Assembly (NCBI GenBank): GCA_963514005.1
Contig: OY740783.1
Location: 75,764,001-75,828,000, forward strand
DNA length: 64,000 bases
Source: Raja brachyura
Lineage: Eukaryota
Reading direction: 5' to 3'
In this document: positions 8,794 through 62,139 of the stretch, piece by piece
Layout of the letters: every line of letters begins with the position of its first letter
Position numbering within the stretch: position 1 is the stretch's first letter
Position numbers and translations under genes: made by a program
The notes under the pieces: model-generated
What the model was told of the DNA's origin: nothing
The model's input: the letters and a program-made list of their open reading frames with translations, nothing else
Databases searched by the model: none

Positions 8794-9003
8794 GTTTAAG
8801 AAAGAACGGCAGATGCTGGAAAAATCCATGGAGACAAAAATGCTGGAGAAACTGAAGGGGTGAGGAACAGGTGACATTTCGGGTCGAGACCCTTCTTCAG
8901 ACCGATCAGTCTGAAGAAGGGTCTCGACCCGAAACGTCACCTATTCCTTCGCTCTATAGATGCTGCCTCACCCGCTGAGTTTCTCTAGCATTTTTGTGTA
9001 CCT
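8794..9003. mobile_element. Fold-back Penelope-derived mini-element
   Basis: Inverted pLTR arms centred near 8905; TSD ttggct(tg/tt)ttat at 8782 and 9004. Confidence 0.8.
8911..8938 (+). ncRNA. Minimal type I hammerhead ribozyme motif
   Basis: CTGAAGA-A-GGGT(CTCG)ACCC-GAAACGTC. Confidence 0.65.
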
Positions 9004-9199
9004 TTGGCTTTTTATGTTTTTCTGTTCCTTTTCAGGAAACAAATGAATTTAAGTTTGTTTCATGTTCTTTTTTGAGTGCCCATTGTATTTGTGAAATGAA
9101 ATAACTCAACATTTCTCTACTAGCCTATTTTAAAAAAATAGATACATCATTCTACCTGAAAAAAGACTGAATAAATGCACCTTCCACTAGTTAGCCGCC

Positions 9200-9590
9200 C
9201 AAGTCCGATCAGCAGAGAAGATTATTGGCTGCAACCCTCCCTCCATTGATGAACTATACACTGCAAGGGCCAGGAAGCGAGTGGGCAAGATCATCTCTGA
9301 CCCCTCTCACCCTGGCCACAAACTCTTTGAATCACTTCCATCTGGAAGGTGACTCCGGACTGTCAAAGCTGCCACAGCCAGACATAAAAACAGTTTTTAT
9401 CCACGAGTAGTTGCTCTACTCAACAGCCAAAAATCTGTAGCCTCCCTTTGATCTGATATTTTGTTCGTTCACATGCTTGATCAATGGTGTTTGATCATTA
9501 ATGTTTTATTATTATTAATGTTTAGTGTTTTCTGAGTCATTCGTAACTGTCACTGTATGTCATGTTGTTACTCGTGGGTGGAGCATATTA
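9200..9590 (+). mobile_element. Rex/Babar-type LINE 3' fragment
   Basis: KIISDPSHPGHKLFESLPSG C-terminal motif plus 3' UTR. Confidence 0.7.
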
Positions 9591-9674
9591 CTCGAGGGCA
9601 GCATATTCTCATGAAAGAGAATATGCTGCCCTTACCCAATTTTTTTAATTTGTGGCCAATGAAATTATATGTGG

Positions 9675-10015
9675 TCCAGGTTTGAGCTTGACCTCGGGTG
9701 CTGTCTGATTGGAGTTGGCATGTTTTCCCTGTGTTGATGTCGGTTTCCTTCAGGTATTCCTGTTTCCTCCCACATCCGGAGGAATTGCGGGTTTGTGAGA
9801 TAATTGGCTTCTACAAAATAGCCCTAATGACCAGTCATAGAGTGAAACAGCGTGGAAACAGGATCTTCGGCCCAACTTGCCCACACCGGCCAACATGTCC
9901 CAGCTACACAGATGAGATGGTGGAAAAACGTAGAACTAGTGTGATTGGGTGATCAACAGTTGGCGTGCTCGTTGGGTTGAAGGGACTGTTTCCATGCTGT
10001 ATCTCTAAACTAAAC
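9675..10015 (+). mobile_element. HE1/V-SINE-like SINE containing a short CR1 tail (about 9833-9910)
   Basis: SINE core; ends tgtatctctaaactaaac. Confidence 0.65.
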
Positions 10016-10489
10016 AGTGATGCCTACCCGTGCCTGTTGGCTCAATATTTTCTCATTATGGCATGAACTACACAACATCTTATTTATTGCTGATATCCAG
10101 ATGGACAAAGATCCTTGTTTTGTAGAAAATCAAGCCTGTCATGTAAATGAGGGATGGAAATGATCAAGGAGTTGAATGACACTCTCATGTTAGAACTCCT
10201 GAACAATTGAAGAGGTGCTTAGTTCCACAATTTGTAAGATAAATGTTATGGTAATTGGAAAATTATCCATTGAGGATTGACCTAAAGTTATGTGTTAAAT
10301 CCCAGTTTAGAAATGTCATCCAGGATTAATTCATAATACTGGCACCTATTAGTAGATTGTAGATTCATGTTTCTTCATGGATTAGAGAAATCGATGAGGT
10401 GTTAAACAGAAGTCTTTAATTTCCATTCTGGTATGACTGAAATATCCCACAATGGTCTTTAAATAAGGGTCTAATAATGTAAATAGTCT

Positions 10490-12180
10490 TACAGCACAGA
10501 AATGGGTCTTCAGCCCTCTTGTCCATGCCTACAAAGACACCACATTATCCCATGTTTGATGTATATCTCTCTGTCCATGTACCTGTCCGATTGTCTTTTA
10601 AATGCTATTAGTTTACTTGCCTCGACTATTTCCTCTGGTCGCTTGTTCCATAAATGTACCACCCTCTTTGTGAAAAAGGTTGCCCCTCAAATTCATATTA
10701 AATCTTTCCCTTCTCACCTTAAACCTATGCTCACTAGTTCTTGATTTCACACATTTTGGAAAAATACTGTGTGCGTTCACCCAAACTATGCCCTTCGTGA
10801 TGTTGTACACCTTTATAAAAATAACCCCTTAGTCTTCCATGCTCCAAGGAATAAAGGAATTATCTATTTGAATGAATGAATGAATGAATAGGTTTATTGG
10901 CCAAGTATTCACATACAAGGAATTTGCCTTGGTGCTCCGCCTGCAAGTGACAACATGACATACAGTGACAATTAGGAAAGACACATAAAACATTATTGAT
11001 TAAACATGTGAATTAAATAAAATACCAAAGCAAAAGGAGGCTACAGATTTTTGGTTATTGAGTAGAGCTACTACTCATGGAAAAAAGCTGTTTTTATGTC
11101 TGGCTGTGGCAGCTTTGACAGTCCGGAGTCGCCTCCCAGAGGGAAGTGATTCAAAGAGTTTGTGGCCAGGGTGAGAGGGGTCAGAGATGATCTTGCCCGC
11201 TCACTTCCTGGCCCTTGCAGTGTACAGTTTGTCAATGGAGGGAAGATTGCAGCCAATAACTTTCTCAGATATTCATCAGTTCCTCTGTTCTATAACACTT
11301 CCCAGGACCCTACTCTTCATTGTGAAATTTCTACCCTGGTTCAACTTCCCAAATTGCAACACCCCACATTTATCTGTATTAAACTCCATCTGCCTTTTTC
11401 CTGCCAACTTACCCAGCTGATCAAGGCCGCTTGACAGCTTTCTTCATTTTCTTCATCCCTCAACTATTTTAGTGACATCTGCAAACTTTCTGACCATGCC
11501 TTGTACATTCCCATCCAAATCTTGATGTAAATGACAACCAACAGTGGGCTCAGCTCCAACTGCTGAGGCATACACCTAATCAACGCCCTGCAGTCTGCAA
11601 GAAAACCTTCCACCATCACTAAATGAGTCTGCAGAAGGTTTCCAACCCAAAATGTTGCCTATCCATGTTCTTCAGGGATGCTGCCTGACCCACTTAGTTT
11701 TTTGTGTCTATTTTCCACCATCATCCTCTACTTCCTACCATCAAGCCAATTATGTATCCAAAAAGGTAGCTCTCCTTGGATCCCATGCGATCCAAACTTC
11801 CTGAACAGACTAAAATGTGGAAACTTATCAAATGCCTTGCTGAAGTCCATATAGATTATATCATCTGCTCTGCCTTCATTAACCTTCTTGGTTATTTCTT
11901 TGAAAAATTCAATCATATTCATGCGACATGATTTTCATTACACAAAGGCATGCTTAGTATCCCTAATTAACTCCTGCCTTTGAAATTGCATATATATCTT
12001 ATCCCTCAGAATACCCTCCAGGAACCCACCTACCATGGATGTCAGGCTTACTACTCAATAGTTACCAAGTTTTTCTTTGCATCTCTTCTTAAACAAAGGC
12101 ACAACATCCTCCAGTCTTTCGGCATCTCACTTGTGGTCTATGATGATACATATCTCTCAGCCAGGGCTCCTGCAATTTCT
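10490..12180 (-). mobile_element. CR1 LINE RT fragment, interrupted by Rex-type and Penelope insertions
   Basis: YMDFSKAFDK ORF 11728-11922; Penelope insert with TSD ttccaccatca at 11608/11713. Confidence 0.8.
10868..11270 (-). mobile_element. Rex/Babar-type LINE 3' fragment with (ATTC)n tail
   Basis: Reverse complement of the 9200-9590 copy; (gaat)n at 10870-10890. Confidence 0.75.
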
Positions 12181-12182
12181 TT

Positions 12183-12534
12183 GAGTATTGTGTGCAGTTT
12201 TGGTCTCCAAATTTGAGGAAGGACATTCTTGCTATTGAGGGAGTACAGCATAGGTTCACGAGGTTAATTCCCGGGATGGCGGGATTGTCATATGTTGATA
12301 GAATGGAGCAGCTGGGCTTGTATACTCTGGAATTTAGTAGGATGAGAGGAGATCTTTGAAACTTATAAGATTATTATGGGTTTGGACATGCTAGAGGCAG
12401 GAAACGTGTTCCAATGTAGGGGCAGTCCAGAACCAGGGGCCACAGTTTAAGAATAAGGGGTAAGACATTTAGAACAGAGATGAGGAAATACCTTTTCACA
12501 CAGAGAGTTGTGAATTTGTGGAATTCTCTGCCTC
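12183..12534 (+). mobile_element. CR1 fragment (+ strand part of a fold-back junction)
   Basis: EYCVQFWSP...FTQRVVNLWNSLP. Confidence 0.85.
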
Positions 12535-26291: not shown

Positions 26292-26377
26292 TAAAAAAGT
26301 GAAACATAAACATCCATCACAGTGGATTCCACATTCCTCACCGTGATGGAAGGCAATAAAGTTCAATCTTCCTCTTT

Positions 26378-26630
26378 GTAGAAGTAGAATTAGGTCATTC
26401 AGCCCATCAAGTCTACGCGGCCATTCAATCATGGCTGATCTATCTCTCCCTCCTAACCCCATTCCCCTGCCTTCTCCCCATAACCTCTGACACCTGTTCT
26501 AATCAAGAATCAATCTATCTCTGCCTTCAAAATATTCACAGGTGGCCTCCACAGCCTTCTGTGGCAAAGAATTCCACAGATTCACCGCCCTCTGACGAAA
26601 TACATTTCTCATCTCTTCCTAATGGAATAT
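26378..26630 (-). mobile_element. CR1 3' tail
   Basis: Reverse complement of the CR1 3' UTR seen at 54360-54575. Confidence 0.8.
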
Positions 26631-44405: not shown

Positions 44406-45084
44406 TAATGAGCAACTGAAAGAAAAACGCACTGAAGTCTCCATTACACCACAATATTTAATCAACTTAGTTTTGAATCAAATGTGATTTTTTGAAATGT
44501 ACCATTTGGAACAACTCTGCAAAGATATTTTCGTTTGAATGTTCTGCAAAACATTGATTCTATTTTTTTAAATAGAATTGCAAGCTGGTGATTGAATCAA
44601 TGCAATGATAGGAAATGATTAAGTGGATTTTCAGGTAAAGCTCTGAGCAAGATTTGATCTTTAGCCTTTTTCTAATAGATTATAACTATAACTGGGTATG
44701 TAAATCAATATGCAATCTCAATAAGTCAGAATATGTTAAAAGCGTTTACCGGTAATTATACTTCAGAAAGATTTACTTTGCCTCCAACGCTTTAAACATT
44801 CCATTTGTCACCACCTGGTTAAAATGTAACTTTGTAATAGGTTCTGAAACAATCACCTGTTACTTGGGAGTGGCGAGGAAGCTTTTGCAACATATCCCAT
44901 GCCACATGCTTACATTGTGAGACATTACATTGCATCCTTTTCTTTGCATTTTGAAGCAATTCTCATGTAGGTCATTTTGCCTCATTGCCCAATTCCCTCT
45001 ATAATATTTATTTGTCAATAGTTCCAAGTGTTACTCTTCATTAACTCTTAATATCTGCTCAAAATGTTCAGCTCATTGTCAGAC

Positions 45085-46456
45085 AGTTATAACCATATAA
45101 CATGTACAGCACGGAAACAGGCCTTCTCGGCCCTTCCAGTCCGTGCCGACCATTCATTTTCCCCTAGTCCCATCTACCTGCACTCAGACCATACCCCTCC
45201 ATTCCCTTCCCGTCAATATACCTATCCACTTTACTTTTAAATGTTAAAATCGATCCTGCCTCCACCACTTCTGCAGGAAGATCATTCCACACAGCCACCA
45301 TTCTCTGAGTAAAGAAGTTCCCCCTCATGTTACCCCTAAACTTCTGTCCCTTAATTCTCATGTCATGCCCTCTTGTTTGAATCTTTCCTACCCTCAATGG
45401 GAAAAGCTTATCCACGTCAACTCTGCCTATCCCTTTCATCATTTTAAAGACCTCAATCAAGTCCCCCCTTGACCTTCTGCACTCCAAAGAATAAGGACCT
45501 AACTTGTTCAACCTTTCTCTGTAACTTAGTTGCTGGAACCCAGGCAACATTCTAGTAAATCTCCTCTGTACTCTCTCTATTTTGTTGACATCCTTCCTAT
45601 AATTAGGCGACCAAAATTGTACACCATACTCCAGAATTGGTCTTACCAATGGCTTGTACAATTTTAACATTACTTCCCTACTCCTATATTCAATGCTCTG
45701 ATTTATAAAGGCCAGCACACCAAAAGCTTTCTTTACCACCCTATCTACATGTGATTCCACCTTCAGGGAACTATGCACAGTTATTCCCAGATCCCTCTGT
45801 TCCACAGCATGCCTCAATTCCCTACCATTTACGTCCTATTTTGATTTGTCCTGCCAAGATGTAGCACCTCACACTTATCAGCATTAAACTCCATCTGCCA
45901 TCTTTCAGCCCACTCTTCCAAATGGCCCAAATCTCTCTAGACTTTGAAAATCTACTTCATTATCCACAGCACCACCTATCTTAGTATCATCTGCATACTT
46001 ACTTATCCAATTTTCCACCCCATCATCTAGATTATTGATGTACATGACAAACAACAGTGGACCCAACACAGATCCCCGAGGCACCCCACTAGTCACCGGC
46101 TTCCAACTTGACAAACAGCCATCCACCATTACTCTCTGGCATCTCCCATTCAGCCACTGTTGAATCCATCTTGCTACTCCGCCATTAACACCCAAAGATT
46201 GAACCTTCTTAACCAACCTTCCATGGGGAACCTTGTCAAAGGCCTTACTGAAATCCATATAGACAACATCCACTGCTTTACCCTCATCAATTTCCCTAGT
46301 AACCTCTTCAAAAAATTCAAGAAGGTTTGTCAAACATGACCTTCCAGGCACAAATCCATGTTGACTGTTCTTGATCAGACCCTGTTTATCCAGATGCTTA
46401 TATATATTATCTCTAAGTATCCTTTCCATTAATTTGCCCACCATTGACGTCAAACT
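45085..46456 (-). mobile_element. Young CR1 LINE 3' fragment
   Basis: ORFs 45164-45817 and 45905-46453; nearly identical to the 31668-32950 copy. Confidence 0.93.
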
Positions 46457-46894
46457 GACGATAATTAACTAATTTGATGCACAACCTTTCTGAGTACCTA
46501 TTAAGAGTTACAATTGCTCAGTAAAAATACATCTATAACCAGGTTAACCTTCCTGGCTACCTTCTCATCCCTTGATTTATTTTCTTACTTTATCAATGGA
46601 CAGTATCCTGTATAATTAAAAAAATAATATCTTTAACATTTTGAGTAACCGTGCACAAATGCACTGAGAAAATTATCTTTAATCGTGTGAAATGTGCAAT
46701 TCAGTGGTAAAACATAAAGTGCTGGAGTACCTCAGTGGGTTCAGCAACATTTGTTGAGGGAATAGATTGGTGACATTTTAGGTTGGGACCCTTCTTCAGA
46801 CTGGTTATACTAATCCAAAACATCACCTATATATTCCCTCTACAGATACTGACTGACCCGTTAAGTTACACCAAGACTTTGTGTTTTACTCAAG

Positions 46895-47667
46895 TTCACG
46901 TTATAGGAGTAGAATTAGGCCATTCAGACTATCGAATCCACTCCACCATTCAATCATGGTTGATCTCTGCCTCCCAATCCCATTTTCCTGCCTTCTGCCA
47001 TTAACCCGTGACACCCGTTCTAATCAAGAATTTGTCTATCTCTGCCTTACAAATATTCACTGACTTGGCCTCCATAACCCTGTGGCAATGAGTTCCACAG
47101 ATTATCTACCATCTGACTAAAGAAGGTCCTCCTCGCCTCCTTTCTTAAAGAGTGCCCTTTAATTCTATGACCTCTGGTCCTAGACTCTCCCACCAGTGGA
47201 AACATCCTGTCCACATCCACTCTATCTATGCCTTTCATTATTCTGTAAGTTTCAATGAGGTTACCCCCTCAACCTTCTAACGTCCAGTGAGTAGAGGCTC
47301 GGTGCTGTCAAATGCTCATCATATGCTAACCCACTCATTCCTGGAATCATTCTTGTAAACCTCATCTGGACCCTCTCCAGTGCCGGCACATCTTTCCTCA
47401 TATATGGGGCCCAAATTTGCTCACAGTACTCCAAATGCAGCCTGACCAGCACCTTAAAGAGCCTCAGCATTACATCTCTGTTTTTGTATTGCAGTCCTCT
47501 TGATATAAATGCTGCATTTAATTTGCCTTCCTTATTATTGATTCGATTGGCAAATTAACCTTTTGGGAGTCCTGCTATAACATTCCCAAGTCCCTTTGCA
47601 CCTCCAATTTCTGGATTCCCTCTTCCCAAGCAGCCTGACGTGTGGTACCTTATCGAAGGCCTTCTGA
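46895..47667 (-). mobile_element. CR1 3' fragment inserted in a Penelope pLTR fragment
   Basis: LVRLHLEYCEQIWAP ORF; pLTR sequence resumes on both sides. Confidence 0.8.
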
Positions 47668-48814
47668 TTCCAGCATCTGCATTTCATGCAATCTGCAACA
47701 TAGGAGTAGTGTTTCATGCTTCTGCTTCTAAATAAAACAGTTGTATTTAATTTTAATGTCCATTTGAGATCAGTTGAAAGTAAGTTTAAAAAATTGGACT
47801 GAAGTTGTACCTTTCAGATGAGTTGACAAAGCAAGGCCTATTTGCAAGCCAAGATGAACCCAGTAGGGGACAACCCCTGGCGCAATGGTTAATATTTACT
47901 TCGCAAAGCTCAATGAATATATCTAAAGCAGGTTGGCCCAGAAATTATTCCCCACCTCAGAATCTATGCTAAACCAGTAATGCTTAGAATGGGGGCCAAA
48001 GTGTGGGATAGTCCTTGCAGCAACATTTTATTGCATGTGGAGCCCAAGGTGTTGTGAACAAACAGACCTTGTACCAAATTAACCAGAGAAACTCAGATAG
48101 ATTTTGAAAAGGGGCCTGCGGAGGCTGGGGAAGGAGAAGGGAGTGATAGCTGTAAGGACATTCTCAAAATCATAGTGTGCACCCCACTGCACTTTATCTA
48201 GTAGCATTGTGAAATATATTATCAGTAACACATTGGTAAAAAACATACATGGACAAATGAGTTTGTGCAATTGTCTTTTAAATATGAATTGCACACTGTC
48301 TGATGTCACCGTGCATGACTAGATGACTCAATGTGTAATTGCATCCTGCATGTGAAGGAACCAAAACACATTTGTCATTCTGTGATTCAACTGCGCATGA
48401 AATATTTGATTGTTTTAAACAATATAGTTATTGACAAATAAAGAATCACCATCTTGCACCCAAAGGTGTTGCACCACTGAATGGATTTCTGGATCATTAT
48501 TACCTTGCTATGTGTGGAGGTTTCTATGTGCAAACACTTTAAAATTAATGTATTGGCTGTGAAGTGCCTTGGGACAATCTGGAAGAGATGCAAAAGTCTT
48601 TTTTTGTGGCCAAATATATGGCTAACAACATATTTTACAATTCCCTTATGAAGTCTAGTGTGGCGTGTACTGTCATCTTTTTCGAGAATTCTGAATGTAC
48701 AAAATCTTTGCAGGATATCAGGAAACCAAATGGCTGCATTTTTGTTCATAAGCACACATCCACATCCCTTTGAAGTACTCTTATGCCTGTTGTGCATCTT
48801 TTTTTTAAACATAG

Positions 48815-48857
48815 GAATGCATTCCCAGAAAACCTGGTCCAGGCCAGCTTTCAACAG
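48815..48857 (+). CDS. slc1a1: slc1a1 exon 5
   Basis: acatag| NAFPENLVQASFQQ |gtaaat; 43 nt. Confidence 0.95.
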
Positions 48858-49613
48858 GTAAATGATTTACTATTTCCTTCACCTACTTCAAAGCTATCAG
48901 AATCAGCCAGTTGCATAAGATTTAATTATATTTTTAAATTGCAATTGGGTGACTGATTGAAAAGTCAAAATTTACCATTAAGAGGACATCATAAAGATAA
49001 TTAATTGCAAAATCTTGCTGGATATTATAAATAATGTCATAAATTATATTTCAGGAATATCAGTGGCCAGATAATGCAAGTGATGCCACATTCATTTAGA
49101 TGTCCCTTATGCTTGATGAGGCAGTACAAAGTCATCTTAACCTAATAAAATTGCATAATCCATACATAAATAAAACCAAGTGATAATAAATCTTCAACAT
49201 TTTATGCTTGTGTCTATAAATCATCAGTGAGCACATTTTGCATTAATGTATGAAAACAGAGTGAAAGTTTTCCTTAGAATACTTGTATTTCCTAACATTG
49301 TTAAAGTACTACAATTGAACTTGTCATTTTAATTGTCTTCCTGTAAGTGCATTCCAATTGCACTGTTGCATTCATCTGCTAGCTTTTCCCCTGAGTGAAC
49401 TTGCTACCATTTTAGGTCCACCAGGAATCATTACATCCTTATTTAATTGATTTAATTCTCATTAAATGGTTACAATTGTGATTCTCACTTAAAAGATCAA
49501 AGCAACAGTTTGGAATGCAACTCGCCCCAGGACAAATATAAGACTATCAGATATGGAATTATGCTTCTGCCATAACATAGTTAATTGGGTGCACTAACCT
49601 CAAAATAGGTCTT

Positions 49614-49837
49614 GTTTAAGAAGGAACAGCAGATGCTGGAAAATCGAAGGTAGTCAAAAATGCTGGAAAAACTCAGCGGATGAAGCAGCATCTATGGAGC
49701 GAAGGAAATAGGCAACGTTTCGGGTCGAGACCCTTCTCCAGTCAGAAGAAAGGTCTCGACCCGAAACGTTGCCTATTTCTTTCGCTCCATAGATGTTGCT
49801 TCACCCGCTGAGTTTTTCCAGCATTTTTGTCTACCTT
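49614..49837. mobile_element. Fold-back Penelope-derived mini-element
   Basis: Inverted arms centred near 49741; TSD caaaatagg(t/c)ctt at 49601/49838. Confidence 0.85.
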
Positions 49838-50933
49838 CAAAATAGGCCTTCCTCTGCACCATCCTTTGAATGAATTAGCCAGCTATGACAGATATTCTGC
49901 TATAATTTGAGTTATGGTAATGCTAATTGAATATAACACGAGTGGTAAATTAACTAACATTATTTGCATCACCATGCCAAATTAGTTATGTGAAATCGAT
50001 CAGGAACTGTAAAAGCACTTAAAAGTTACTTTGGAAAGTGACAAGCAGAAAACAAATCTTGCTTTCAGTGAAAATTTATCGAGGGAAATAAATGTAATTT
50101 ACGTAACCTTCCCATAGTAATCAGACAGCATTGTCTCTAAAGAACACAATCCCCTGCAGGTGGCCATTGTAATTGACCAACAATTGCTTCTATATAGAGC
50201 ATAACATACAGCCTTTAGTATTTTTAGTTTGCAGTAATAAAAATAGCTATTAAAAATACCTTTACTTTTGAAAATCCTGCAAAGAATCATTGTTATTGAC
50301 GGTCTGAAACTCTATTGCAATAAACCTCTTTTCCCCATTCCCCACAATTGTTTTAAAACTTGATTTTTTTTTAATAATGTGAAGAACACACAGTACTGGA
50401 GTAACTCAGCGAGTCAGGCAACATCTCTGGACGACAATAGACGCAGGAGTAGGCCATTCGGCTCTTCGAGCCAGCACCGCCATTCAATGTGATCATGGCT
50501 GCTCATCCACAATTAGTACCCCGTTCCTGCGTTCTCCCCATATCCCCTGACTCTGCTATCTTTAAGAGCCCTATCATGGACAGGTGACGTTTTGGGTTGG
50601 GACCCATGTGCGTGAGGTTTCTTACGAACACAACCATTGTGTTATAGCATAGCTTCCTGTACTGTAGTTCCAATGCTGGAACTGGATGGTTTCTAGAGTC
50701 AACAGCTAGGAGAGCAGGTGAAAGTTTGAACTTTCACTTCTATAATGGAAATTTATAACCATGTAATTTCTCTCAAGTTATTCTGTATTTGCTCAATTGG
50801 TATTTGGGTATTTTTTTTAAAAATGTTGATCTGAACTACTTTACCAGTTAATTACAGTGTGTATTAATTAATGAATTGTCCTGACATGTCAAAAACAAGC
50901 TATGTGTGATTTCCTTTTCCTATTCATTTCCAG

Positions 50934-51029
50934 TATAAAAGCAAGCGACAGGAAATTGAACCTGTAAACAATGTCAGCGTTACCACTGCGGTAACAGTTA
51001 CTGTTATAATGACCACTCTGATGAATGAG
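50934..51029 (+). CDS. slc1a1: slc1a1 exon 6 (extracellular loop)
   Basis: ttccag| YKSKRQEIEPVNNVSVTTAVTVTVIMTTLMNE |gtaacc; 96 nt, phase 0-0, NVS sequon. Confidence 0.9.
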
Positions 51030-51129
51030 GTAACCTTGTTTCTTTGCTAGTCATTGCTATCATAATACTTTTATCAGATAATTTTTACATCAAGTTTTTT
51101 TTTTAAGAGTGCTGCATTTGCAATTAATT

Positions 51130-51450
51130 GATCTAGAATATGGAATATTGAACAGTACAACACGGGAACAGGCCCTTCAGCACACAATGTCTGTGCTGAT
51201 CATAATACCAAGATAAACTGATCTTGCCTGCCTGCACATGATCAATATCCCTCAATTCATCTCATTTCCACATGCCAATCTAAACGCCTCTTTAAAACCA
51301 CTATTGTATCTTTTTTCGCCACCACTCACGGCAATGTGTTCCAGGCACCTATGATTATGCCCTTTAGTCTTTGACAATTCCACTTTGGGACAAAGGTTCA
51401 GACTGTCTGGCCCATCCACGCTTCTCCTAATTTTATATATTTCTGAGATC
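51130..51450 (-). mobile_element. Decayed CR1 3' fragment
   Basis: aacagtacaacacgggaacaggcccttc 3' end. Confidence 0.65.
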
Positions 51451-51579
51451 ATAGAACACCAATGCATAGCAGGAAAGAACGAAGAAATTAGCAAAGTAAA
51501 TGTGTCGTTTAGAAAGATCGGTAAGTCTATCCAATGCATTCTATCTTCATTATTCCTCCCATGATGACCCATCCACATT

Positions 51580-52117
51580 CATAGAAACATAGAAACATAG
51601 AAAATAGGTGCAGGAGTAGGCCATTCGGCCCTTCGAGCCTGCACCGCCATTCAATGTGATCATGGCTGATCATCCAACTCAGTATCCCGTACCTGCCTTC
51701 TCTCCATACCCCCTGATCCCTTTAGCCACAAGTGCCACATCTAACGCCCTCTTAAATATAGCCAATGAACTGGCCTCAACTACCTTCTGTGGCAGAGAAT
51801 TCCAGAGACTCACCACTCTCTGTGTAAAGAATGTTTTCCTCATTTCGGTCCTAAAGGAATTCCCCCTTATCCTTAGACTGTGACCCCTTGTTCTGGACTC
51901 CCCCAACATCGGGAACAATCTTCCAGCATCTAGCTTGTCCAACCCCTTAAGAATTTTGTAGGTTTCTATAAGATCCCCCCTCAATCTTCTAAATTCCATC
52001 GAGTACAAACAGAGTCTATCCAATCTTTCCTCATATGAAAGTCCTGACATCCCAGGAATCAGTCTGGTGAATCTTCTCTGTACCCCCTCTATGGCAAGGA
52101 TGTCTTTCCTCAGATTC
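51580..52117 (-). mobile_element. CR1 3' fragment with (tttctatg)n tail
   Basis: ORF RKDILAIEGVQRRFTRLIPG... Confidence 0.9.
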
Positions 52118-52386
52118 AACAGGAATGTTGACAAGGGCTGGTGAACAAGAGTGCTGCAAATCTTTACACTCTTTACACTCATTTGCAGAGGCACTTTTCC
52201 TGAACCGCAGGGACATGGCTGTCGTTCCTGTGAATCACAGCAATATCTATATCCAGAAATGGTCTGCAGGTTTGAGAGTGGGGAGGAGATTTCTGGCATG
52301 ATTGTGCATTTGATCCTCTTTAATTTACATTTCAATAATATTTACGAGTTCTGCTGGAGACATGCAAGTCCATTAGGAGTTGTTAA

Positions 52387-52624
52387 AGGGCCTGTCCCAC
52401 TTGACGTTTTTTTTGGCGACTGCTGGCATCATTGACTGACATATTAGGTCACTGAAAAAGATGTGGTGTGACGTGGCGTGATGTGGCGTGATGATGAATG
52501 GTGTTTCATCAAGTGTCGCAACATTTATTTTGTTGCCGCTGGATTTTGAATTGTTCAAAATCTTTTGATGATCCTGATATGACGCCGGCAGTCGCCAAAA
52601 TAATCACCAAGAACGACAGGCCTT
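52387..52624. mobile_element. PIF/Harbinger-like MITE (same family as 15520-15742)
   Basis: TIR agggcctgtc; TAA TSD on both sides. Confidence 0.8.
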
Positions 52625-52641
52625 TAAGAGTGCCATCAGTG

Positions 52642-52819
52642 GAGACACACGAGATTGCAGATGTAAAAATCTGGAACAAAAAACAAACTGCTGGAGGAAC
52701 TCAGTGGGCTGAGGAGCAGAATCTGTGGAAGGATGTAGGGTCTTCACCCAAAATGTTGACAATTCCTTTCTCCCCACAAATGCTTGACCCATTGAGTTCC
52801 TCCAGCAGTTTGTTCCTTT
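52642..52819. mobile_element. Older fold-back Penelope-derived mini-element
   Basis: Perfect 12-bp TSD gtgccatcagtg at 52630/52820. Confidence 0.7.
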
Positions 52820-52916
52820 GTGCCATCAGTGTATTGATTATTATATATATATACAATTAAGAAATCGAAAATTAGACTATGATTTTTAATTTAGATCCTA
52901 TCACAAATCTTCACAG

Positions 52917-53101
52917 AATAAAACCAAGGACTACAAGGTGGTTGGCATGTACTCTGATGGAATCAATGTGCTGGGGCTTATTGTCTTCTGCCTAGTGTTT
53001 GGGATTGTCATAGGACAAATGGGAGAAAAAGGAAAAATTCTGCTGGACTTTTTTGATGCGTTGAATGAAGCCACCATGAGAATGGTGCAGATCATCATGT
53101 G
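52917..53101 (+). CDS. slc1a1: slc1a1 exon 7
   Basis: tcacag| [61 protein letters not shown](W) |gtgagt; 185 nt. Confidence 0.97.
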
Positions 53102-53584
53102 GTGAGTAGGATGTAGTACTGAAATTAAGTTCTGCATTACTTATGCATTATCTTTTTGTACTAAGTGAAAGAGGCATCAATACCATTGCTAGATTGCCCT
53201 TTTCCACCAAACAGATACATTATTTTATGACTATATGTGAGGGCTAGAAGCTCTGCTAAGCAAGTGTTCATCGAGGCACCAGGATCAAAGAGCAAGATCT
53301 TGTCTTGATGATCTATATCATTCCTGTAGTGGCACTTCCCACTCTTGGAAATGCTAGTTAAAATATACCACAATGTTCAAGAGCCTCGAAGGGCCCATGG
53401 ATCAAATCCCTGGCCAACCTTCTATATTTGACTACTGAAAGTCCCTGATGTTCATATATAGGAAGATGAGGCAAATAATCAAAATGGAAGATAAAACCAC
53501 TTACTCTCTGAATTAAGACTGGAGGAAGTTGGCTGCTGCAGTGCAGCACTGTATACGGTGAACAGCACTGCTACATTACATCTT

Positions 53585-54575
53585 TGCATTGTATATTAAT
53601 GATTTGGATGGGGGGTTGAAGGTTTTGTGGCCAAGTTTGCAGATGTTACGAAAATAGGTGAAGGGGCAGGTAGTGCAGAAAAAGCAGGCACTCTGCAGAA
53701 AGACTTGGACAGGTTCAGAGAGTGGGCAGAGAATGGCAGATGGAATATAGTGTAGCAAAGTGTTGAGTCATGCATTTTGGTAGTAGGAATAGAGGCGTAG
53801 GCTATTTTCTAAATGGGGAGAAAATCCAGAAATCGGAGGTGCAAAGGGGCTTGGGAGTGCTGGTGCAGGATTCCCAAAAAGTTAATCTGCAAGTCGAATC
53901 GGTAGTAAAGAAGGCAATGCTAGCATGTATTTCTTATTGTTTATCTCTTAGTATTAAGAGGGCTTGAATTAAAAAAACAGGAATGTAATGTTGAGGCTCT
54001 ATAAGGTACTGGTCTGACCGCATTTGGAGTATTGTGAGCAATTTGGGCACCATATCTAAAGAAGAGTGTGCTGGCTCTGGAGGGGATCAAGAGGAGGTTT
54101 ACGAGAATTATCCCAGGAATTAGTGGGTTAAAATATGAAAGGACGTTTGACAGCACTGGGCCTATACTCGCTGGAGATTAGAAGAATGAGGGGAGACCTC
54201 ATTAAAAATGTACCGAATGGTGAAAGGCTTGGAAAGAGTGGATGTGGAGAGGATGTTTCCACTGGTGGGAGAGTCTAGGACTAGAGGTCTTCACCTCTGA
54301 ATTAAAGGACATTCCTTTAGGTGGGAGATGAGGGGGAATTTCAGTAGTCAGAGAGTAGTGAATCTATGGAATTCTTTGCAAAGAAGGCTGTGGAGGCCAT
54401 GTCAATGGATATTTTTAAGGCAGAAATAGATTCTTGATTAGTACAGGTGTCAGGGGTTATGGGGAGAAGGCAGGAGAATTGGGTTAGGAGAAAGAGATAG
54501 ATCAGCCACGATTGGATAGTGGAGTAGACTTGATGGGCTGAATGGCCTTATTCTGCTCCTATCATTTATGACCTT
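53585..54575 (+). mobile_element. CR1 3' fragment
   Basis: YINDLD, KFAD, MHFG motifs and 3' UTR. Confidence 0.88.
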
Positions 54576-54815
54576 GCATATATTAAATCCATTTTAAGAG
54601 GAACATACATGATTTATAGTAATTAACTATTATTTGGCCTTGTTAATGACTTACTTATAGTTCAATGTGAAACTCTTCTGTTTCGGTAGTATTGTTAATC
54701 TAAGAGCAAATAAAATAATAATTTCTGGAATAACATATTACCGGATTTATAACTGTACCAAAATTAAGTTGAAATTACTTTTCCAGTATAACCACTTGTC
54801 AATGATTTGTTTCAG

Positions 54816-54923
54816 GTATATGCCAATTGGCATTTTATTCCTGATTGCTGCAAAAGTGATGGAAGTGGATGACTGGGAAATTTTCCGCAGACTTGGGCTT
54901 TACATGGCCACAGTGCTGAGTGG
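54816..54923 (+). CDS. slc1a1: slc1a1 exon 8
   Basis: tttcag| [35 protein letters not shown](G) |gtatgt; 108 nt. Confidence 0.97.
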
Positions 54924-55079
54924 GTATGTATCATGTTTCTTTAAAATGCTTTTAGAAATTTTTGAATCAGGTTGAAGAAAGAGTTCTATTTATTGAATTG
55001 TTGCAGGGAAAAGAAGTGGACCTAAAGTTAGAGTTAAATAGTGAAGCTAAATTGAAATCTTAAACTTTAGCAGTTAAAT

Positions 55080-55725
55080 TAGCTTTCATAGCAAAAGGAT
55101 TTGAGTCTAGGAGCAGGGAGGTTCTACTTCAGTTGTACAGGGTCTTGGTGAGACCACACCTGGAGTATTGTGTACAGTTTTGGTCTCCAAATCTGAGGAA
55201 GGACATTATTGCCATAGAGGGAGTACAGAGAAGGTTCACCAGACTGATTCCTGGGATGTCAGGACTGTCTTATGATGAAAGACTGGATAGACTCTGTTTA
55301 TACTCTCTAGAATTTAGGAGATTGAGAGGGGATCTTATAGAAACTTATAAAATTCTTAAGGGGTTGGACAGGCTAGATGCAGGAAGATTGTTCCCGATGT
55401 TGGGGAAGTCCAGGACAAGGGGTCACAGTTTAAGAATAAGGGGGAAATCCTGTAAGACCGAGATGAGAAATACTTTTTTTCACACAGAGAGTGGTGAGTC
55501 TCTGGAACTCTTTGCCACAGAGGGTAGTTGAGGTCAGTTCATTGGCTATATTTAAGATGGAGTTAGATGTGGCCATTGTGGCTAAGGGGATCAGAGGATA
55601 TGGAGAGAAGGCAGCTACGGGATACTGATTTGGATGATCAGCCATGATCATATTGAATGGCGGTGCAGGCTCGAAGGGCCGAATGGCCTACTCCTGCACC
55701 TAATTTCTATGTTCTATGTTCTATG
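55080..55725 (+). mobile_element. CR1 3' fragment with (ttctatg)n tail
   Basis: ORF 55133-55531. Confidence 0.9.
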
Positions 55726-56446
55726 AATAACAAGCCGCTGTATTAAATCTAAAACAAATGGTTAGGGTGATCATTGCCGAGGTTCTAATGTTAAATACGT
55801 GGATCTGACTCAATGCTGAACATACAGCTTGAATAATATAATGTTCAGATACAGAATACATTTAACAGTTTGCGTATTCCATTCTATAATACCAGAATAT
55901 GATGATTGAGGAAATGTATTTGTGGTGTTCCTCACACAACTGAGGATCACCTACTGGGATTGGAATTGGGTGTGTATTTCTATGTGTGCTCCCTGCTGTA
56001 GGCACAATGGTATAAAAGTAAACTGAGTTTTATCCTCTCGCTAAACTATGGTTTACCGTATTGAGATCATCCATAGAAATAGCTTTCAGTCAAGAAGAGT
56101 AAAATGATGTTTGCAAGAACAAATTCAATTTATCAAGTACCTCTAATGCAGTAAAACTTCTCAAGGTCTTTCTTTCCTAATCCATTTATGTTATTAACAT
56201 GAACAGATAAATTCTCTTGTGTCTTTGGACCCATCTGCTTCTGCGAAGTAATGGATCTCCTATAATCTAAGCTCCATGACTTTAGCTAGACGATGGGTCA
56301 CAATACAGGGACAGGGCATTGTGCTATTGAGGTCCTCAAGTAAATAATGTTAAATAACTCACTGCCAATACAATATGGAATGGTCCTACTCTGGATGTTA
56401 TTATCTTTTAATTTTTTTTCAACCTGCGTTGTAGTAAGCTCTGATT

Positions 56447-59400
56447 CATAGAAACATAGAAACATAGAAAATAGGTGCACGAGGAGGCCATTCAGCCCTT
56501 CGAGCCAGCACCACCATTCAATATGCTCATGGCTGATCGTCCGCTATCAATAACCTGTGCCTGCCTTCTCTCCATATCCCTTGACTCCATTAGCCCCGAG
56601 AGCTCTATCCAACTCTCTCTTAAATCCATCCAGTGACTTGGCCTCCACTGCCCTCTGTGGCAGGGAATTCCATAAATCCACAACTCTCTGGGTAAAAAAA
56701 CCAGCTCAGTCTTAAATGACCTCCCCTTTATTCTAAGACCGTGGCCCTTGGTTCTGGACTCATCAAACACTGGGAACATTTTTCCTGCATCTAGCTTGTT
56801 CAGTCCTTTTATAATGTTATATGTTTCTATAAGATCCCCACTCATTCTTCTAAACTCCAGTGAATATAAGCCTAGTCTTTTCAATCTTTCCTCATATGAC
56901 AGTCCCGCCATCCCAGGGATCAATCTCGTGAACCTACGTTGCACTGCCTCAATCACAAGGATGTCCTTCCCCAAATTAGGAGACCAAAACTGTACACAAT
57001 ACTCCAGATGTGGTCTCACCAGAGCCCTATACAACTGCAGAAGAACCTCTTTAGTCCTGTACTGAAATCCTCTTGTTATGAAGGCCAACATTCCATTAGT
57101 TTTTTTCACTGCCTGCTGTACCTGCACACCAACCTTCAGTGACTGGTGTACAAGGACACCCAGGTCCTTCTGTACCTCGCCCTTACCTAACCTAAGCCCA
57201 TTGAGATAATAATCTGCCCCATTGTTTTTGCCGCCAAAGTGGATAACCTCATATTTATCTATATTATACTGCATCTGCCACGCATCTGCCCACTCACTCA
57301 ACCTGTCCAGGCCCCCCTGCAACCTCCTAACATCCTCTTCACAGTTCACACTGCCACCCAGCTTTGTGTCATCCGCAAACTTGCTAGTGTTGCTCCTAAT
57401 TCCCTCTTCCAAATCATTTATTTTTATATATATATATTATATATATATATATATATATATGGTAAACATTTGCGGCCCCAACACCGAGCCTTGCGGCACT
57501 CCACTCGCCACTGCCTGCCATTCTGAAAAGGACCCGTTCACTCCTACTCTTTGCTTCCGGTCTGCCAACCAATTTTCTATCCATGTCAACACATTCAGGG
57601 ACAGAAGTTTAGGGGTAACATGAGGGGGAACTTCTTTGCTCAGAGAGTGGTGGCTGTGTGGAATGATCTTCCAGCAGAAGTGGTGGAGGCAGGATCGATT
57701 TTACCATTTAAAAGTAAAGTGGATAGGTATATGGATGGAAGGGAATGGAGGGGTATGGTCTGAGTGCAGGTAGATGGGACTATGGAAAAATAAATGGTCG
57801 GCACGGACTAGAAGGGCCGAGAAGGCCTGTTTCCGTGCTGTAATTGTTATATGGTTATATGGTTAACACCCTATGCCCAATAGGTAGGTCTCTCTTGCTC
57901 CTTTCTTGAAAAGTGGGATAACATTAGCTATCCTTCAATCCACAGGAACTGATCCTGAATCTATTGAACATTGGAAAATGATCACCAATGCGTCCACTAT
58001 TTCTAGAGCCACCTCCCTGAGGACCCTGGGATGCGGACCATCAGGCTCAGGGGATTTATCATCGTTCAGTCCCATTAGCCTACCCAATACTATTTCGCGC
58101 CTAATGAACATTTCTTTCATTTCCTCTACCCTCTTAGATCCTCTGTCCTCCAGTACATCTGGAAGATTGTTTGTGTCTTCCTTAGTGAAGACAGATCTGA
58201 AGTACCTATTCAACTTCTGCCATTTCCTTGTTGCCCATAATTATTTCGCCCATGTCTGCCTTCAAGATACCCACATTTGACTGTGCTACTCTTTTTCCCC
58301 TAACATATCTAAAGAAGCTTTTACTGACCGTCTTTATATTCCTAGCCAGCTTCCCTTCGTTCTTCAACTTTTCAGCCCGTATTGCCCATTTTGTTTCCTT
58401 CTGTTGTCCTATGAAAGTTTCCCAATCCTCCGGTTTCCGGCTACTCTTTGCTGTGTTATACATCTTTTCTTTTTGTTTTATTCTATCCCTAACTTTTCTT
58501 GTCAGCCACGTTTGCCTCCTACTCCCCTTAGAATCTTTCTACCTTTTTGGAATGAAATGATCCTGCGTCTTCCGGATTATGCCCAGAAATTCCTGCCATT
58601 GCTGTTCCACCGTCATTCCTGCTAGGATCCCTTTCCAGTCTACCTTGGCCAGCTCCCCTCTCATGCCTTCATAGCCCCCTTTATTCAACTGCATCACTGC
58701 CACTTCCGATTTAACGTTCTCCTTCTCGAATTGCAGATTAAAACGAATCATATTATGATCACTACCTCCAAGCGGTTCCTTTACCTCGAGTTCTCTTTAT
58801 CATATCTGGTTCATTGGACAACACTAAATCCAGAATTGCCTTTTCTCTGGTCAGCTCCATTACAAGCTGCTGTAAGAATCCATCTCGGAGGCATTCTACA
58901 AACTCTCTTTCTTGGGGTCCTGAACCAACCTGATTTTCCCAGTCAACCTGCATATTGAAATTCCCCATCACCACAGTGGCATTAGCTTTGTTACATGCCA
59001 GTTTTAACTCCTGCTGCAACTTACACCCTACATCCGGGCTACTATTTGGGGGTCTGTAAATAACACCAATTAGTGTCTTCTTGCCTTTACAATTCCTCAA
59101 CTCAATCCACAGTGACTCTACCTCGTCAGTCCGTATGTCTTCCCTCGCAAGGGACTGAATTCCATCCCTCACCAGCAGAGCTACTCCTCCTCCTCTGCCC
59201 ACCTGCCCGTCCTTTCTATAGGATGTATAACCCTGAATATTAAGTTCCCAGGCCCGATCCTCCTGCAGCCACGTCTCAGTAATCCCCACAATGTCATATC
59301 TACCAACCTGTAACTGAGCCTCAAGCTCATCTACTTTATTTCTTATACTTCACGCATTCATATACAATACTTTTAATTCCTTGCGCATCTCACCTTTCAC

Positions 59401-60125
59401 ATCGATCCCTATTACACTTGGCCATACTCTCCTATCCCTTTGTGAGCTTCCTTTCCTGTTAATTCTGGGGTCATTAACCATCCCTTTACTCTGTTTCCCT
59501 TTAACTTCATCGTCGACTATCAAATGTGACATCCCACCCCCCTTATTCAGTTTAAAACCACCCGTGTAGCAGTGGCAAACCTGCCTGCCAGAATGCTGGT
59601 CCCCACCTGTTAAGATGCAAGCCGTCCCTTTTGTACAGTTCCCCCTTACTCCAAAACAGATCCCAGTGATCTAAGAATCTAAATCCCTGCCCCCTGCACC
59701 AGTTACTCAGCCACACATTCAGGTCCCGTATCTCCCTGTTCCTGCTCTCGCCAGCACGAGGAACTGGAAGCAAACCGGAGATAACAACCCTGGTGGTCCT
59801 GCTTTTGAGCATTTTTCCAAGCTCACTAAAGTCACGCTGCAGAATATTCATCCCCTTCTTTCCGACATTGTTTGTGCCGACATGCATTACCACTTCCGGC
59901 TGTTCACCTTCGCCCTTGAGGATTTTCTGCACTCTGTCCATGACATCCTGGATCCTGGCACCAGGAAGGCAGCACACCATCCTCGAATCCCGTCTGTTGC
60001 AGCAGAAACCCCTGTCCGTACCTCACAATGGAGTCTCCAACTACAATGGCGTTGCCTGACGTTGGCCTCTTTGGTTTTGGCTCAAGAGCCCTTTTTGCTT
60101 TGCAAGCCAGTCCGCCGCTCAGTTT
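56447..60125 (-). mobile_element. Long CR1 LINE: ORF1 SGNH/esterase domain, APE endonuclease, partly deleted RT
   Basis: HVGTNN...DGLHLN (59552-59980); GITETWL/IYRPP/GNFN/LDLV (58762-59289); FADDTK (56492-57412); (tttctatg)n tail. Confidence 0.92.
57592..57864 (+). mobile_element. CR1 3' end nested in the long CR1
   Basis: Same subfamily as 45085-45350; aacac on both sides. Confidence 0.85.
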
Positions 60126-60603
60126 TCTAATGTCTTCTGTCATCATGTTTCTCAATCTATCTGCATACTTTGACACTATCCCATTCATTCATCATTCATC
60201 GTTTTTCTATTGCTCTCACTTGGTTCTATTTCAAGCATTGAATTATAGACATAAAATAACTTGCAATATGTCTTCCACTATCCCACAATCTCTTGCTTCT
60301 CAGGATTACAACATTTTTCTCTCTCCTTTGCTTGTTTCCATCTCTTTCCCTTTCTCTCTTTTTTCTTCATTTACAGTTTACTGACATTTCAGCAGTTAGG
60401 AAACATTTCAGTACCTTGTGCTACGTATTCTGAAACAAGCAGCTGGAATGCACGTGGTAATTGTTTCACAAGGAGTGTTATTTCTCTACCTGTTCAAAAT
60501 ACATAAGGCTACTAAATTCCAATCATTTTTGTTGTAGATTTATTTATTTTTTAATATGGTTATGAAAGATAAATGTCCATAAATATACACTGTTGTTTTA
60601 TAG

Positions 60604-60726
60604 ATTAGCCATCCATGGAATAATCATCCTACCCATGATCTACTTTATTGTGGTACGGAAAAACCCGTTCACATTTATTGGAGGGATGGCTGAGGCATTA
60701 CTGACTTCTGTGATGATTTCATCCAG
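60604..60726 (+). CDS. slc1a1: slc1a1 exon 9
   Basis: ttatag| [40 protein letters not shown](S) |gtaact; 123 nt. Confidence 0.96.
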
Positions 60727-61925
60727 GTAACTGTGCAGATTTTAATAATTTATTACAATCATCTAAACAGTATGAATTGTTCATGAATCAAAATTTATAG
60801 TGCCTGGACTGAAATATTTTCCACTATAACCTAAACATAATTTGAGGCCTGCCCATTGCAAACCAATTGAAATTCAAAGCACTTGGAATTTAAAATGACC
60901 AGACAGAATATGTTCCCTCACTAACTAAATGCTGGAATCTGGAGCAAAATAATACAAATGGCTGGAGGAACTGAGCAGATTGAGCAAGATATCTTGGGGA
61001 AATGAATTATTGATGTTTTGGGTTGATACCTTGCATTAGAAATGAGAGTGGAGAGGGCAGATTGCTGGAAAAAGGACTGTAATGCTGACTGCCCCAAAGA
61101 CACTTCCATTGACTGTGCCAAGATCCTGCTTTAGAACATATTGTATCAACAATATATTAAGAAGCCGGTGTAGCTAATGGATATCAGAAGTATGCAAAAT
61201 ATGCTGATCATGGCGTCAAATTGGACGAGTTACCATGCTTTATGCAATGATCAGGGATTAAGCAGGAATACACCCCCCCCCCCCCCCCCCCCCCCCCAAA
61301 TCCACCTGCCTCCCCAATTTCCTATTGTTTAAAGAGATCATTAAATATTTGTGGACAACATGCTTATTGTTTCCTATGTTCTAGTCACCTGGTCATTTAT
61401 GTTTTTAGGCCCTTACAGAGATGCAACTGTCTAAGTGGTGTATAAGAAACAACAGGAGTTTGTGTTAACTGAATCTTTTTCCAAAATTCTTTGTACCCTC
61501 TGATGGATGTTTATGTTGCTTTATCTGTCACGTGCGCAACATGTTAGACAAATTGTGCACACAGAGCACAACTGTGCTCTAGAACAGGGCAACATTCATT
61601 CATTGAGAAATTATACACACTGACCCTCAGCAAAGAATGATACATAACATGTTTTCAGTTCAGGAAGAACATCCTGGAGCCACATATAGTACCAGACATA
61701 ATAACAAATCAATTTGTGTTCGTTAAGATTACGGTGCCCATCTGCATTTGTAGATTAAGTTCTGTCTACACTGCAGCTGAAAATATCTCCAATATATTAT
61801 AGTTTGCCACGCACACCATTCAATAAGGGAGGTTACAATCTCTAAAGTAATTGCACCATTTGACAACCATTTTGTGATTGGCAATAAGTAATAGTTGGAG
61901 GAAAGCCATTTCCAAAGATTTATTG

Positions 61926-62139
61926 TTGAAGAAGAAACTGCAGATGCTGGAGAAATCAAAAGCAGACAAAAAATGCTGGAGAATCTCAGCGGGTGAGGCA
62001 GCACCTGTGGAGAGAAGGAGTAGGTGATGTTTCGGGTCGAGACCCTTCGAGTCTGAAGAAGGGTCTCGACCAGAAACGTTGCCTACTCCTTTTCTCCATA
62101 GATGCTGCCTCACCCGCTGAGTTTCTCCAGCATTTTTTG
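61926..62139. mobile_element. Fold-back Penelope-derived mini-element
   Basis: Inverted arms centred near 62049; TSD tccaaagattta(t/g)tg at 61911/62140; hammerhead motif 62053-62080. Confidence 0.85.

What the first reader, a model, noticed from the sequence alone, without database searches (positions are those of the whole stretch)
8911..62080. Intronic family of minimal hammerhead ribozyme motifs carried by Penelope-derived elements
Seen: the 28-mer CTGAAGA-A-GGGT(CTCG)ACCC-GAAAC-GTC recurs on + at 8911, 23803 and 38148, near-intact at 38542 and 62053, on - at 37973-38000, and in decayed form elsewhere (about 4848, 25027, 30604, 49742). It has the CUGANGA/GAAA core, a stem II, and a loopless palindromic stem III (ACGU) ending in a GUC site. 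At 4440-4930 and 37821-38670 it follows a GIY-YIG-type C-terminus. Established: Penelope-like elements carry minimal type I hammerheads that cleave as dimers. Inference: several potentially self-cleaving motifs lie in the sense strand of the slc1a1 pre-mRNA. Caveat: stem I appears to be only about 2 bp, so activity is uncertain.
Basis: partly seen in the sequence, partly recalled or inferred. Interest (0 to 1): 0.72.

Follow-up and report, generated by a model that had tools for sequence, protein, structure and literature searches.

The report
Penelope transposon ends carrying minimal hammerheads
The repeat is the known stripped-down hammerhead motif at the end of a Penelope-like jumping gene (about 50,000 exact copies in this fish genome); the copies in slc1a1 introns are predicted not to cut the gene's RNA, but the ends of the copies suggest that the motif likely sits at the very start of the element's own RNA and likely cuts it only rarely.

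Summary
Observation confirmed. The 28-mer is exact at 8911, 23803, 38148 (+) and 37973-38000 (-), and occurs 50,608 times genome-wide. It is the minimal type I hammerhead in the terminal repeat of a ~4-kb Neptune-type Penelope-like element (RT, Cys linker, GIY-YIG), a known kind (PMC4209133). The slc1a1 inference is not supported. Only three sense copies have an intact core and stem II; two are predicted to be locked by an upstream antisense arm (37-42 kcal/mol), and the third has a 1-bp stem I. Sense copies are not depleted (19 vs 17). More informative: 53 of 103 copies picked by a downstream anchor begin within 7 nt upstream of the core, likely the RNA's 5' end. Starts at the cut site are rare and not above a control (147 vs 143). 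Yet five insertions carry AAA exactly at the cut site, and some repeated units all start there, hinting at rare cleavage in vivo. The scan had already noted this family and its start pile-up on other DNA.

The parts
8911..8938 (+). Intact min-HHR core, sense arm (8904-9000) of an inverted two-arm insertion in slc1a1 intron 1; ~16-bp TSD
   Evidence: predicted masked by the upstream antisense arm, 36.9 kcal/mol to open
8793..8909 (-). Antisense arm of the same insertion (motif at 8873-8900, 1 mismatch)
23762..23896 (+). Young insertion with a perfect 15-bp TSD: partial copy (+3..+32) followed by a copy from -1 to the first tail site; intact core at 23803-23830, stem I only 1 bp
37872..38053 (-). 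Antisense arm of a young nested insertion (exact motif at 37973-38000)
38066..38193 (+). Sense arm of the young nested insertion; intact core at 38148-38175, intron 2; ~15-bp TSD
   Evidence: predicted masked, 42.3 kcal/mol
38311..38430 (+). GIY-YIG C-terminal fragment of an older copy
   Evidence: 72% identity over 36 aa to the L103 ORF, E 7e-15
38542..38569 (+). Motif of the older copy; stem II mismatch; antisense arm at 38195-38313
   Evidence: 34.3 kcal/mol
4562..4928 (+). Old decayed copy: GIY-YIG C-terminal fragment (4562-4729) and decayed motif at 4849
25027..25054 (+). Motif with C3>A and stem II mismatch
30604..30631 (+). Decayed motif (GAAA box lost)
49612..49833 (.). Head-to-head two-arm insertion in intron 5; both cores mutated (49714 -, 49743 +)
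61922..62140 (.). Head-to-head two-arm insertion in intron 9; sense motif at 62053 with broken stem II closing pair
2564..63230 (+). Host gene slc1a1 (EAAT3), coding exons 1-10 (approx. 2564, 37318, 41744, 43128, 48813, 50931, 52911, 548xx, 60605, 63027)

Best explanation
The motif is the minimal hammerhead in the terminal repeat of a very abundant Neptune-type Penelope-like retrotransposon, and the copies in slc1a1 introns are likely passive insertions that are predicted not to cut the pre-mRNA. Shown: the element is ~4 kb (3,988 nt motif to motif) with the motif ~160 nt upstream of the main ATG; copies end at two tail sites (about +94 and +129, counted from C3), often have 9-18-bp target duplications, and often form head-to-head pairs. 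Inferred: reverse transcription starts at a tail site and, in about half of all events, runs off the RNA's 5' end 0-7 nt upstream of the core, which is likely the transcription start. The ribozyme would then form the first ~31 nt of the element's RNA. Inferred: with a 2-bp stem I and a competing hairpin it would cut only as a dimer or with protein help, and rarely; at most about 1% of copies start at the cut site.
For: Element. 5' ends: 53 of 103 anchor-picked copies start at -7..0, only 1 at -99..-8, 28 run on beyond -100. Genome-wide only 9,216 of 35,267 core-bearing copies keep 11 templated nt upstream. 11 of 22 copies that run through the tail into the ORF also start at -7..+8. 3' ends: 64 of 103 at +87..97 and 34 at +121..132, like the two RT start sites of Anolis PAc (PMC11167929). 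Poor fold: stem II probability <=0.03 in the element's own context. Masking of intronic copies. No strand depletion, 19 vs 17. Cut-site starts not above control: 147 vs 143 at +32 and 97 at +31. Rare-cut footprints: AAA exactly at the site in 5 of 29 insertion-bearing copies with different flanks; repeated units all starting at +28 in four loci.
Against: No raw RNA reads were available, so neither the start site nor cleavage was seen in RNA. The extra G before the start (54 of the first 100, expected 26-29%) is not a clean cap signature: purines, often G, also precede +28 starts. Starts spread from -7 to +8. The five AAA copies all have exactly three A and may descend from one event. Fold energies ignore proteins and kinetics. 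Non-CpG core positions vary less (4 of 820) than others (47 of 3,256; p=0.03), though this is biased by how copies were chosen.
Confidence: 0.78

Rival explanations
1. One reading: sense intronic copies cleave slc1a1 pre-mRNA as dimers and tune its output.
For: Three sense copies have an intact core; 23803 is not masked (0.1-1.3 kcal/mol to open) and has a partial tandem copy upstream; rare cleavage footprints exist for the family.
Against: 8911 and 38148 predicted locked in long hairpins; 23803 has a 1-bp stem I and stem II probability 0.01-0.17; the ACGU dimer helix adds only about 3 kcal/mol; no sense depletion; published min-HHRs show no monomer and low dimer activity (PMC4209133).
Confidence: 0.07
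2. The pile-up of starts at -7..0 is not the RNA's start but a reverse-transcriptase stop, or a fold-back at the near-palindrome just upstream of the core, or the 3' splice site formed by the pyrimidine tract and CAG at -4..-2.
For: Many junctions are head-to-head at that near-palindrome; a pyrimidine tract with CAG precedes the core; in Drosophila virilis the intron's 3' end maps to helix I (PMC4209133).
Against: Most short copies have no inverted arm next to the start; 19 of 69 non-inverted short copies have the TSD within 25 nt and share no upstream exon; no joint at that acceptor among the listed joints of four RNA-guess runs (other organisms, list cut); RT moving 3' to 5' would be expected to stop before, not after, a structure.
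Confidence: 0.3
3. The motif is a dead relic that never cuts; it persists because it overlaps promoter or RT-binding signals, and the cut-site oddities are chance.
For: No bulk peak at the cut site; stem I below the published descriptor's 3-bp minimum; predicted misfold; HHR mutants did not affect PAc insertion in vitro (PMC11167929).
Against: Non-templated A runs at exactly this site in several junction forms (AAA inserted; GUC lost plus AAA; AAAA replacing two bases; ORF piece plus AAAA; 12 A) and none at the other positions among 29 copies; four or more A directly or one G before +28 in 7 listed hits versus 0-1 at +27, +29, +30, +31 (first 100 of 284, hand count).
Confidence: 0.3
4. The short copies are a retrozyme or SINE family spreading through self-cleaved circular RNA.
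For: Huge copy number; a few tandem arrays whose units start at the cut site; retrozymes derive from pLTRs (bioRxiv 10.64898/2026.07.22.740005).
Against: Copies are dispersed, not HHR-bearing tandem arrays; the arrays found lack the core; most copies retain the uncut core; ends match the autonomous element's tail sites.
Confidence: 0.05

Closest known systems
Minimal hammerheads (min-HHR) in pLTRs of metazoan Penelope-like elements (Cervera and De la Pena 2014, PMC4209133)
   Same: CUGANGA plus one extra base, G10.1-C11.1, GAAA, palindromic 15.2-16.2 with no loop 3, C17; pLTR location; mostly solitary truncated copies, pairs on opposite strands. Closest rows in Fig. S3: Acropora digitifera Neptune (4-bp stem II, CGUC) and Culex (2-bp stem I, CUGAAGAA, CGUC).
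   Different: Stem I is 2 bp with a U.G or U-A closing pair, under the descriptor's 3-bp minimum; the 2-bp rows in Fig. S3 use G-C pairs. 50,608 identical copies versus thousands of variable ones. No cartilaginous fish in Table S1 or Fig. S3 (supplement file 1 could not be searched).
Neptune/Nematis-type EN+ Penelope-like elements (Craig et al. 2021, passages)
   Same: Single ORF, RT then C-terminal GIY-YIG, CX2-5CxxC linker, partial tandems, inverted truncated copy, 30-40-bp tail.
   Different: No tree was built, so Neptune versus Nematis is not resolved; the sharp start of copies at the motif is not described in the passages read.
Poseidon element PAc of Anolis (Frangieh et al. 2024, PMC11167929)
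   Same: Two adjacent RT start sites bounding the tail; both strands extended; hammerhead near the 5' end; uncut RNA is the main template.
   Different: In PAc the ORF starts in stem II and the RT sites lie in the ORF; here they lie upstream of the main ATG (+163). PAc RNA-seq showed no ends at the cut site; here rare genomic junctions mark it.
Non-LTR retrozymes and conserved intronic hammerheads of amniotes (PMC7229834 passages; bioRxiv 10.64898/2026.07.22.740005)
   Same: Type I hammerhead in animal genomes, often intronic.
   Different: No tandem HHR-bearing arrays and no long stem I for loop-loop contacts; these are dispersed young insertions, not conserved single-copy motifs.

Membership tests
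Minimal type I HHR of PLEs | Core CUGANGA, optional extra base, GAAA, NUH | tested here: met
   descriptor
Minimal type I HHR of PLEs | Stem II of 3-7 bp closed by G10.1-C11.1 | tested here: met
   4 bp by sequence; only a one-sided U-A to U.G variant seen; predicted to be outcompeted by other folds
Minimal type I HHR of PLEs | Palindromic 15.1-16.1 allowing dimer stem III | tested here: met
   ACGU; dimer structure -12.7 vs best cofold -26.6 kcal/mol
Minimal type I HHR of PLEs | Stem I of at least 3 bp (published descriptor) | tested here: not met
   2 bp in 66 of 85 commonest copies; minimum 3; the paper lists 2-bp variants outside its descriptor, so the motif is filed with those variants
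Minimal type I HHR of PLEs | Located in the pLTR of a PLE | tested here: met
Minimal type I HHR of PLEs | Self-cleavage after H17 (dimer or protein-assisted) | tested here: inconclusive
   no assay; no bulk peak; rare junction footprints
EN+ Penelope-like element, Neptune/Nematis type | One ORF with RT and C-terminal GIY-YIG | tested here: met
   1,203-aa open frame with YIDD and IYCIRC..YIGET; Pfam RVT_1 E 2e-4 and GIY-YIG E 1.6e-3, both under the curated cut-offs
EN+ Penelope-like element, Neptune/Nematis type | CX2-5CxxC linker | tested here: met
   C-x4-C-x2-C before the endonuclease; definition
EN+ Penelope-like element, Neptune/Nematis type | pLTR partial tandems, inverted copies, 30-40-bp tail | tested here: met
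EN+ Penelope-like element, Neptune/Nematis type | RT phylogeny within Neptune | not tested
   no tree built
Non-LTR retrozyme | Tandem units each with a complete type I HHR, no ORF | tested here: not met
   dispersed copies tied to an autonomous ORF; arrays found start at +28 and lack the core
Host-co-opted intronic ribozyme | Foldable in native context and conserved at the locus | tested here: not met
   masking or broken stems; young TSD-bounded insertions; the empty-site test was inconclusive

The most novel reading that the evidence does not exclude
In this Penelope-like element the hammerhead is the first ~31 nt of the capped RNA and works as a rare, dimer- or protein-gated self-decapping switch. 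The genome records the cut in the living animal: copies in which the cut end was oligo-adenylated and rejoined or jumped to, and arrays whose every unit starts at the cut site. This would be in vivo evidence of PLE hammerhead cleavage, which the papers read here lack.
Probability: 0.3. Interest if true: 0.65.

Novelty: new member of a known kind. Interest (0 to 1): 0.38.

Why it matters
The motif class and its home in Penelope-like elements have been known since 2014, and intronic copies are expected at one exact copy per 53 kb, so the slc1a1 angle is ordinary. What the ribozyme does for these elements is still open: Craig et al. call it unclear, and Frangieh et al. found it dispensable in vitro with no RNA ends at the cut site. 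Tens of thousands of near-identical copies give a natural record of template ends. That record points to an RNA that starts at the motif, is nearly always copied uncut, and is cut rarely. This argues against the model in which cleavage and circularisation routinely make the template, and it names exact positions to test by CAGE and cyclic-phosphate sequencing.

Tried and rejected
Rfam scan: no hammerhead family hit at E<=5; hits were sub-threshold miRNA-like hairpins caused by the inverted arms. A pattern for a common sequence after the tail gave 902 mixed hits and was not used. RNA evidence: only assembled contigs, mostly of uncertain kind and of coded other organisms, were offered; they cannot show starts or ends, and loose ends near the start position mix subfamilies. 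Empty-site test of the 23803 insertion: joints skipping 153-164 nt had short sides and lie in another repeat; inconclusive. Cap-derived G: kept as weak only, because purines precede cut-site starts as well. Host-exon capture at the CAG acceptor: rejected, TSDs lie close to the start in 19 of 69 and no shared exon was seen. Excess core conservation: p=0.03 for non-CpG sites, but copies had to align through the core's first bases, one downstream column holds a subfamily variant, and the core's CpG position decays like others (5 of 82). Bulk peak at the cut site: not found (hand tally of the first 100 of 1,638 hits: 15-17 at +28, 14 at +32, 2-9 at the other positions, 15 internal duplications set aside; genome counts). 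The A-run search was flooded by a C>A variant, so only C1 to part of C7 was read. Older subfamilies with a longer templated stem I: none in 1.2 Mb of fetched, partly overlapping and motif-enriched DNA. Lunse et al. 2017 was not held; only its title was seen.
Full report
Observation. The 28-mer is exact at +8911, +23803, +38148 and -37973-38000, with 1-5 mismatches at the other places named. It has 50,608 exact copies in the 2.70-Gb genome, evenly on both strands, and 0 for the reversed control. Positions below count from C3 of the core (0); the predicted cut is between +27 and +28. The host gene is slc1a1/EAAT3 on +; its closest hits are sharks and rays, so the genome is likely a cartilaginous fish (inference). 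Ten coding exons map from 2564 to 63230, placing the copies in introns 1, 2, 5 and 9.

The parent element. Long copies continue upstream into GIY-YIG and RT coding sequence. [quoted passage not shown] L106 has the motif at both ends, 3,988 nt apart. The linker marks the Neptune/Nematis type (Craig et al., passages); no tree was built. The main ATG is at +163, so the motif lies in the 5' leader. Window fragments at 4562 and 38311 match the ORF's C-terminus; 38148 belongs to a younger nested insertion and does not follow that fragment.

The motif. It fits the published consensus for core, extra base, G10.1-C11.1 and the palindrome (PMC4209133; main text parts 1-2 of 4 and supplement file 2 read, file 1 not searchable). 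Stem I is 2 bp in 66 of 85 copies of the commonest form, under the descriptor's minimum of 3; the paper lists 2-bp variants separately. In the element's own context stem II is predicted at probability <=0.03, outcompeted by a hairpin that spans the cut site. The hand-set dimer scores -12.7 kcal/mol against -26.6 for the best cofold. Published min-HHRs showed no monomer and low dimer activity; PAc's needed protein (PMC11167929, parts 1-2 of 4).

Effect on slc1a1. Three sense copies have an intact core and stem II. 8911 and 38148 follow their own antisense arms and cost 36.9 and 42.3 kcal/mol to open; 38542, 49743, 62053 and 25027 cost 20-34 and also carry mutations; 23803 is open but has a 1-bp stem I (350 nt upstream). 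Repeat ends inside the gene are 19 sense and 17 antisense (hand count; p=0.87; paired arms are not independent). Across 82 copies, non-CpG core sites varied at 4 of 820 versus 47 of 3,256 elsewhere (p=0.03), but this is biased by the alignment rule and by one subfamily column, and the CpG core site decayed like others. I read this as no clear excess. Regulation of slc1a1 is unlikely (inference).

Where copies begin and end. Copies were picked by a 30-nt anchor downstream of the cut (54,970 in the genome). I analysed those in fetched DNA from the first 3.8 Mb of C1: 103 after de-duplication, against 100 listed, so a few duplicates remain. 53 start at -7..0, 10 at +1..8, 6 at +9..25, 3 at +26..30, 2 at +31..34, 1 at -71 and 28 beyond -100; 64 end at +87..97 and 34 at +121..132. 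Genome-wide, 9,216 of 35,267 core-bearing copies keep 11 templated bases upstream (26%; mutation and other subfamilies lower this somewhat). Of 22 copies that run through the tail into the ORF, 11 start at -7..+8. The simplest reading is an RNA whose 5' end lies about 3 nt before the core. The sequence there fits an initiator consensus (recalled), and Drosophila Penelope has an internal promoter (PMC2377424, passages). The base before the -3 start is G 54, A 35, T 11 in the first 100 of 4,464 hits (G expected 26-29%). This is not proof of a cap, since purines also precede cut-site starts. No raw RNA reads were available.

Does it cut? In bulk, no: starts after two purines number 147 at +28, 97 at +31 and 143 at +32, i.e. 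roughly 1% of copies or less. In detail, perhaps. Among all 29 copies with 2-6 extra bases near the site, 10 are expansions of the GAAA run, 5 have AAA exactly at the cut with different flanks, 1 has four A replacing two bases after the cut, 1 has two purines there, and the rest are local duplications or complex. Among the first 30 hits are a copy with GUC lost and AAA added, an ORF piece joined by four A, and a 12-A run before +28. Four loci hold repeated units that start at +28, with differing junction bases in one (L221, L222, L253, L263). Against this: the AAA copies may share one origin; one array starts at +32/33 (L231); the numbers are small. I put rare in vivo cleavage at about even odds or a little better.

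Mechanism. Shown: anatomy, copy ends, target duplications, inverted pairs. Inferred: the protein nicks both strands and starts cDNA at a tail site, as shown for PAc; short transcripts' ends give the ~100-135-nt copies, read-through transcripts give the long ones; the ribozyme is mostly misfolded and cuts rarely.

Novelty. The motif class and its link to these elements are published. Searches for hammerhead with Penelope, shark, skate, pLTR, transcription start and non-templated junctions listed no paper on this family or on copy starts at the motif. Lunse et al. 2017 was not held and could cover it, and bioRxiv supplements were not opened. The retrozyme preprint (parts 1 and 3 of 5, passages) sampled one cartilaginous fish. 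PMC6765202 and PMC7229834 were seen as passages. This scan holds 59 matching notes in this genome and similar ones in other genomes; they are not independent support. Verdict: a real, known kind of element; the intronic-ribozyme reading is weak; the record of template ends is the part worth testing.

Noticed in passing
L268, L275, L276, L291, L292 (G000): Five insertions with different flanks carry three extra A exactly at the predicted cut site; L288-L290 carry a different 3-nt insert there and look like one lineage.
   Followed up: partly
L221:500-1000, L222, L253, L263: Single insertions made of repeated units that each start at the cut site (+28); two are bounded by a TSD.
   Followed up: partly
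L259: A piece from inside the RT coding region is joined through four A to a copy starting at the cut site.
   Followed up: no
L103 and L106, leader +49 to about +170: An upstream ATG opens a ~40-codon frame that runs through both tail sites and overlaps the main ATG (read by eye output).
   Followed up: no
L161-L190: 756 genomic copies run past the tail into the ORF start; many stop at +165..+266 and are followed by a second copy starting at the motif, a miniature partial tandem.
   Followed up: partly
motif +23..+26: If the RNA starts at -3, the ACGT palindrome falls near the position of a downstream promoter element; Drosophila Penelope's element RGACGTGY shares ACGT. Possible dual use, speculative.
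   Followed up: no
window 12000-60100: Many CR1-like LINE fragments; 58201-60130 (-) and 55900-57860 hold ORF1/endonuclease/RT pieces, and 31667-32958 and 45172-46459 are 97-99% identical copies (family names recalled).
   Followed up: no
window 16837-17659: RT C-terminal fragment of another LINE type on +, with a chance CUGAUGA..GAAA pattern at 16976.
   Followed up: no
window 2657-37317: slc1a1 intron 1 is ~35 kb and holds most of the repeat copies.
   Followed up: yes
L106:5251-5300 and 6651-6700: The upstream partial copy includes a duplicated piece of the ORF's 5' part, so this tandem is composite.
   Followed up: no
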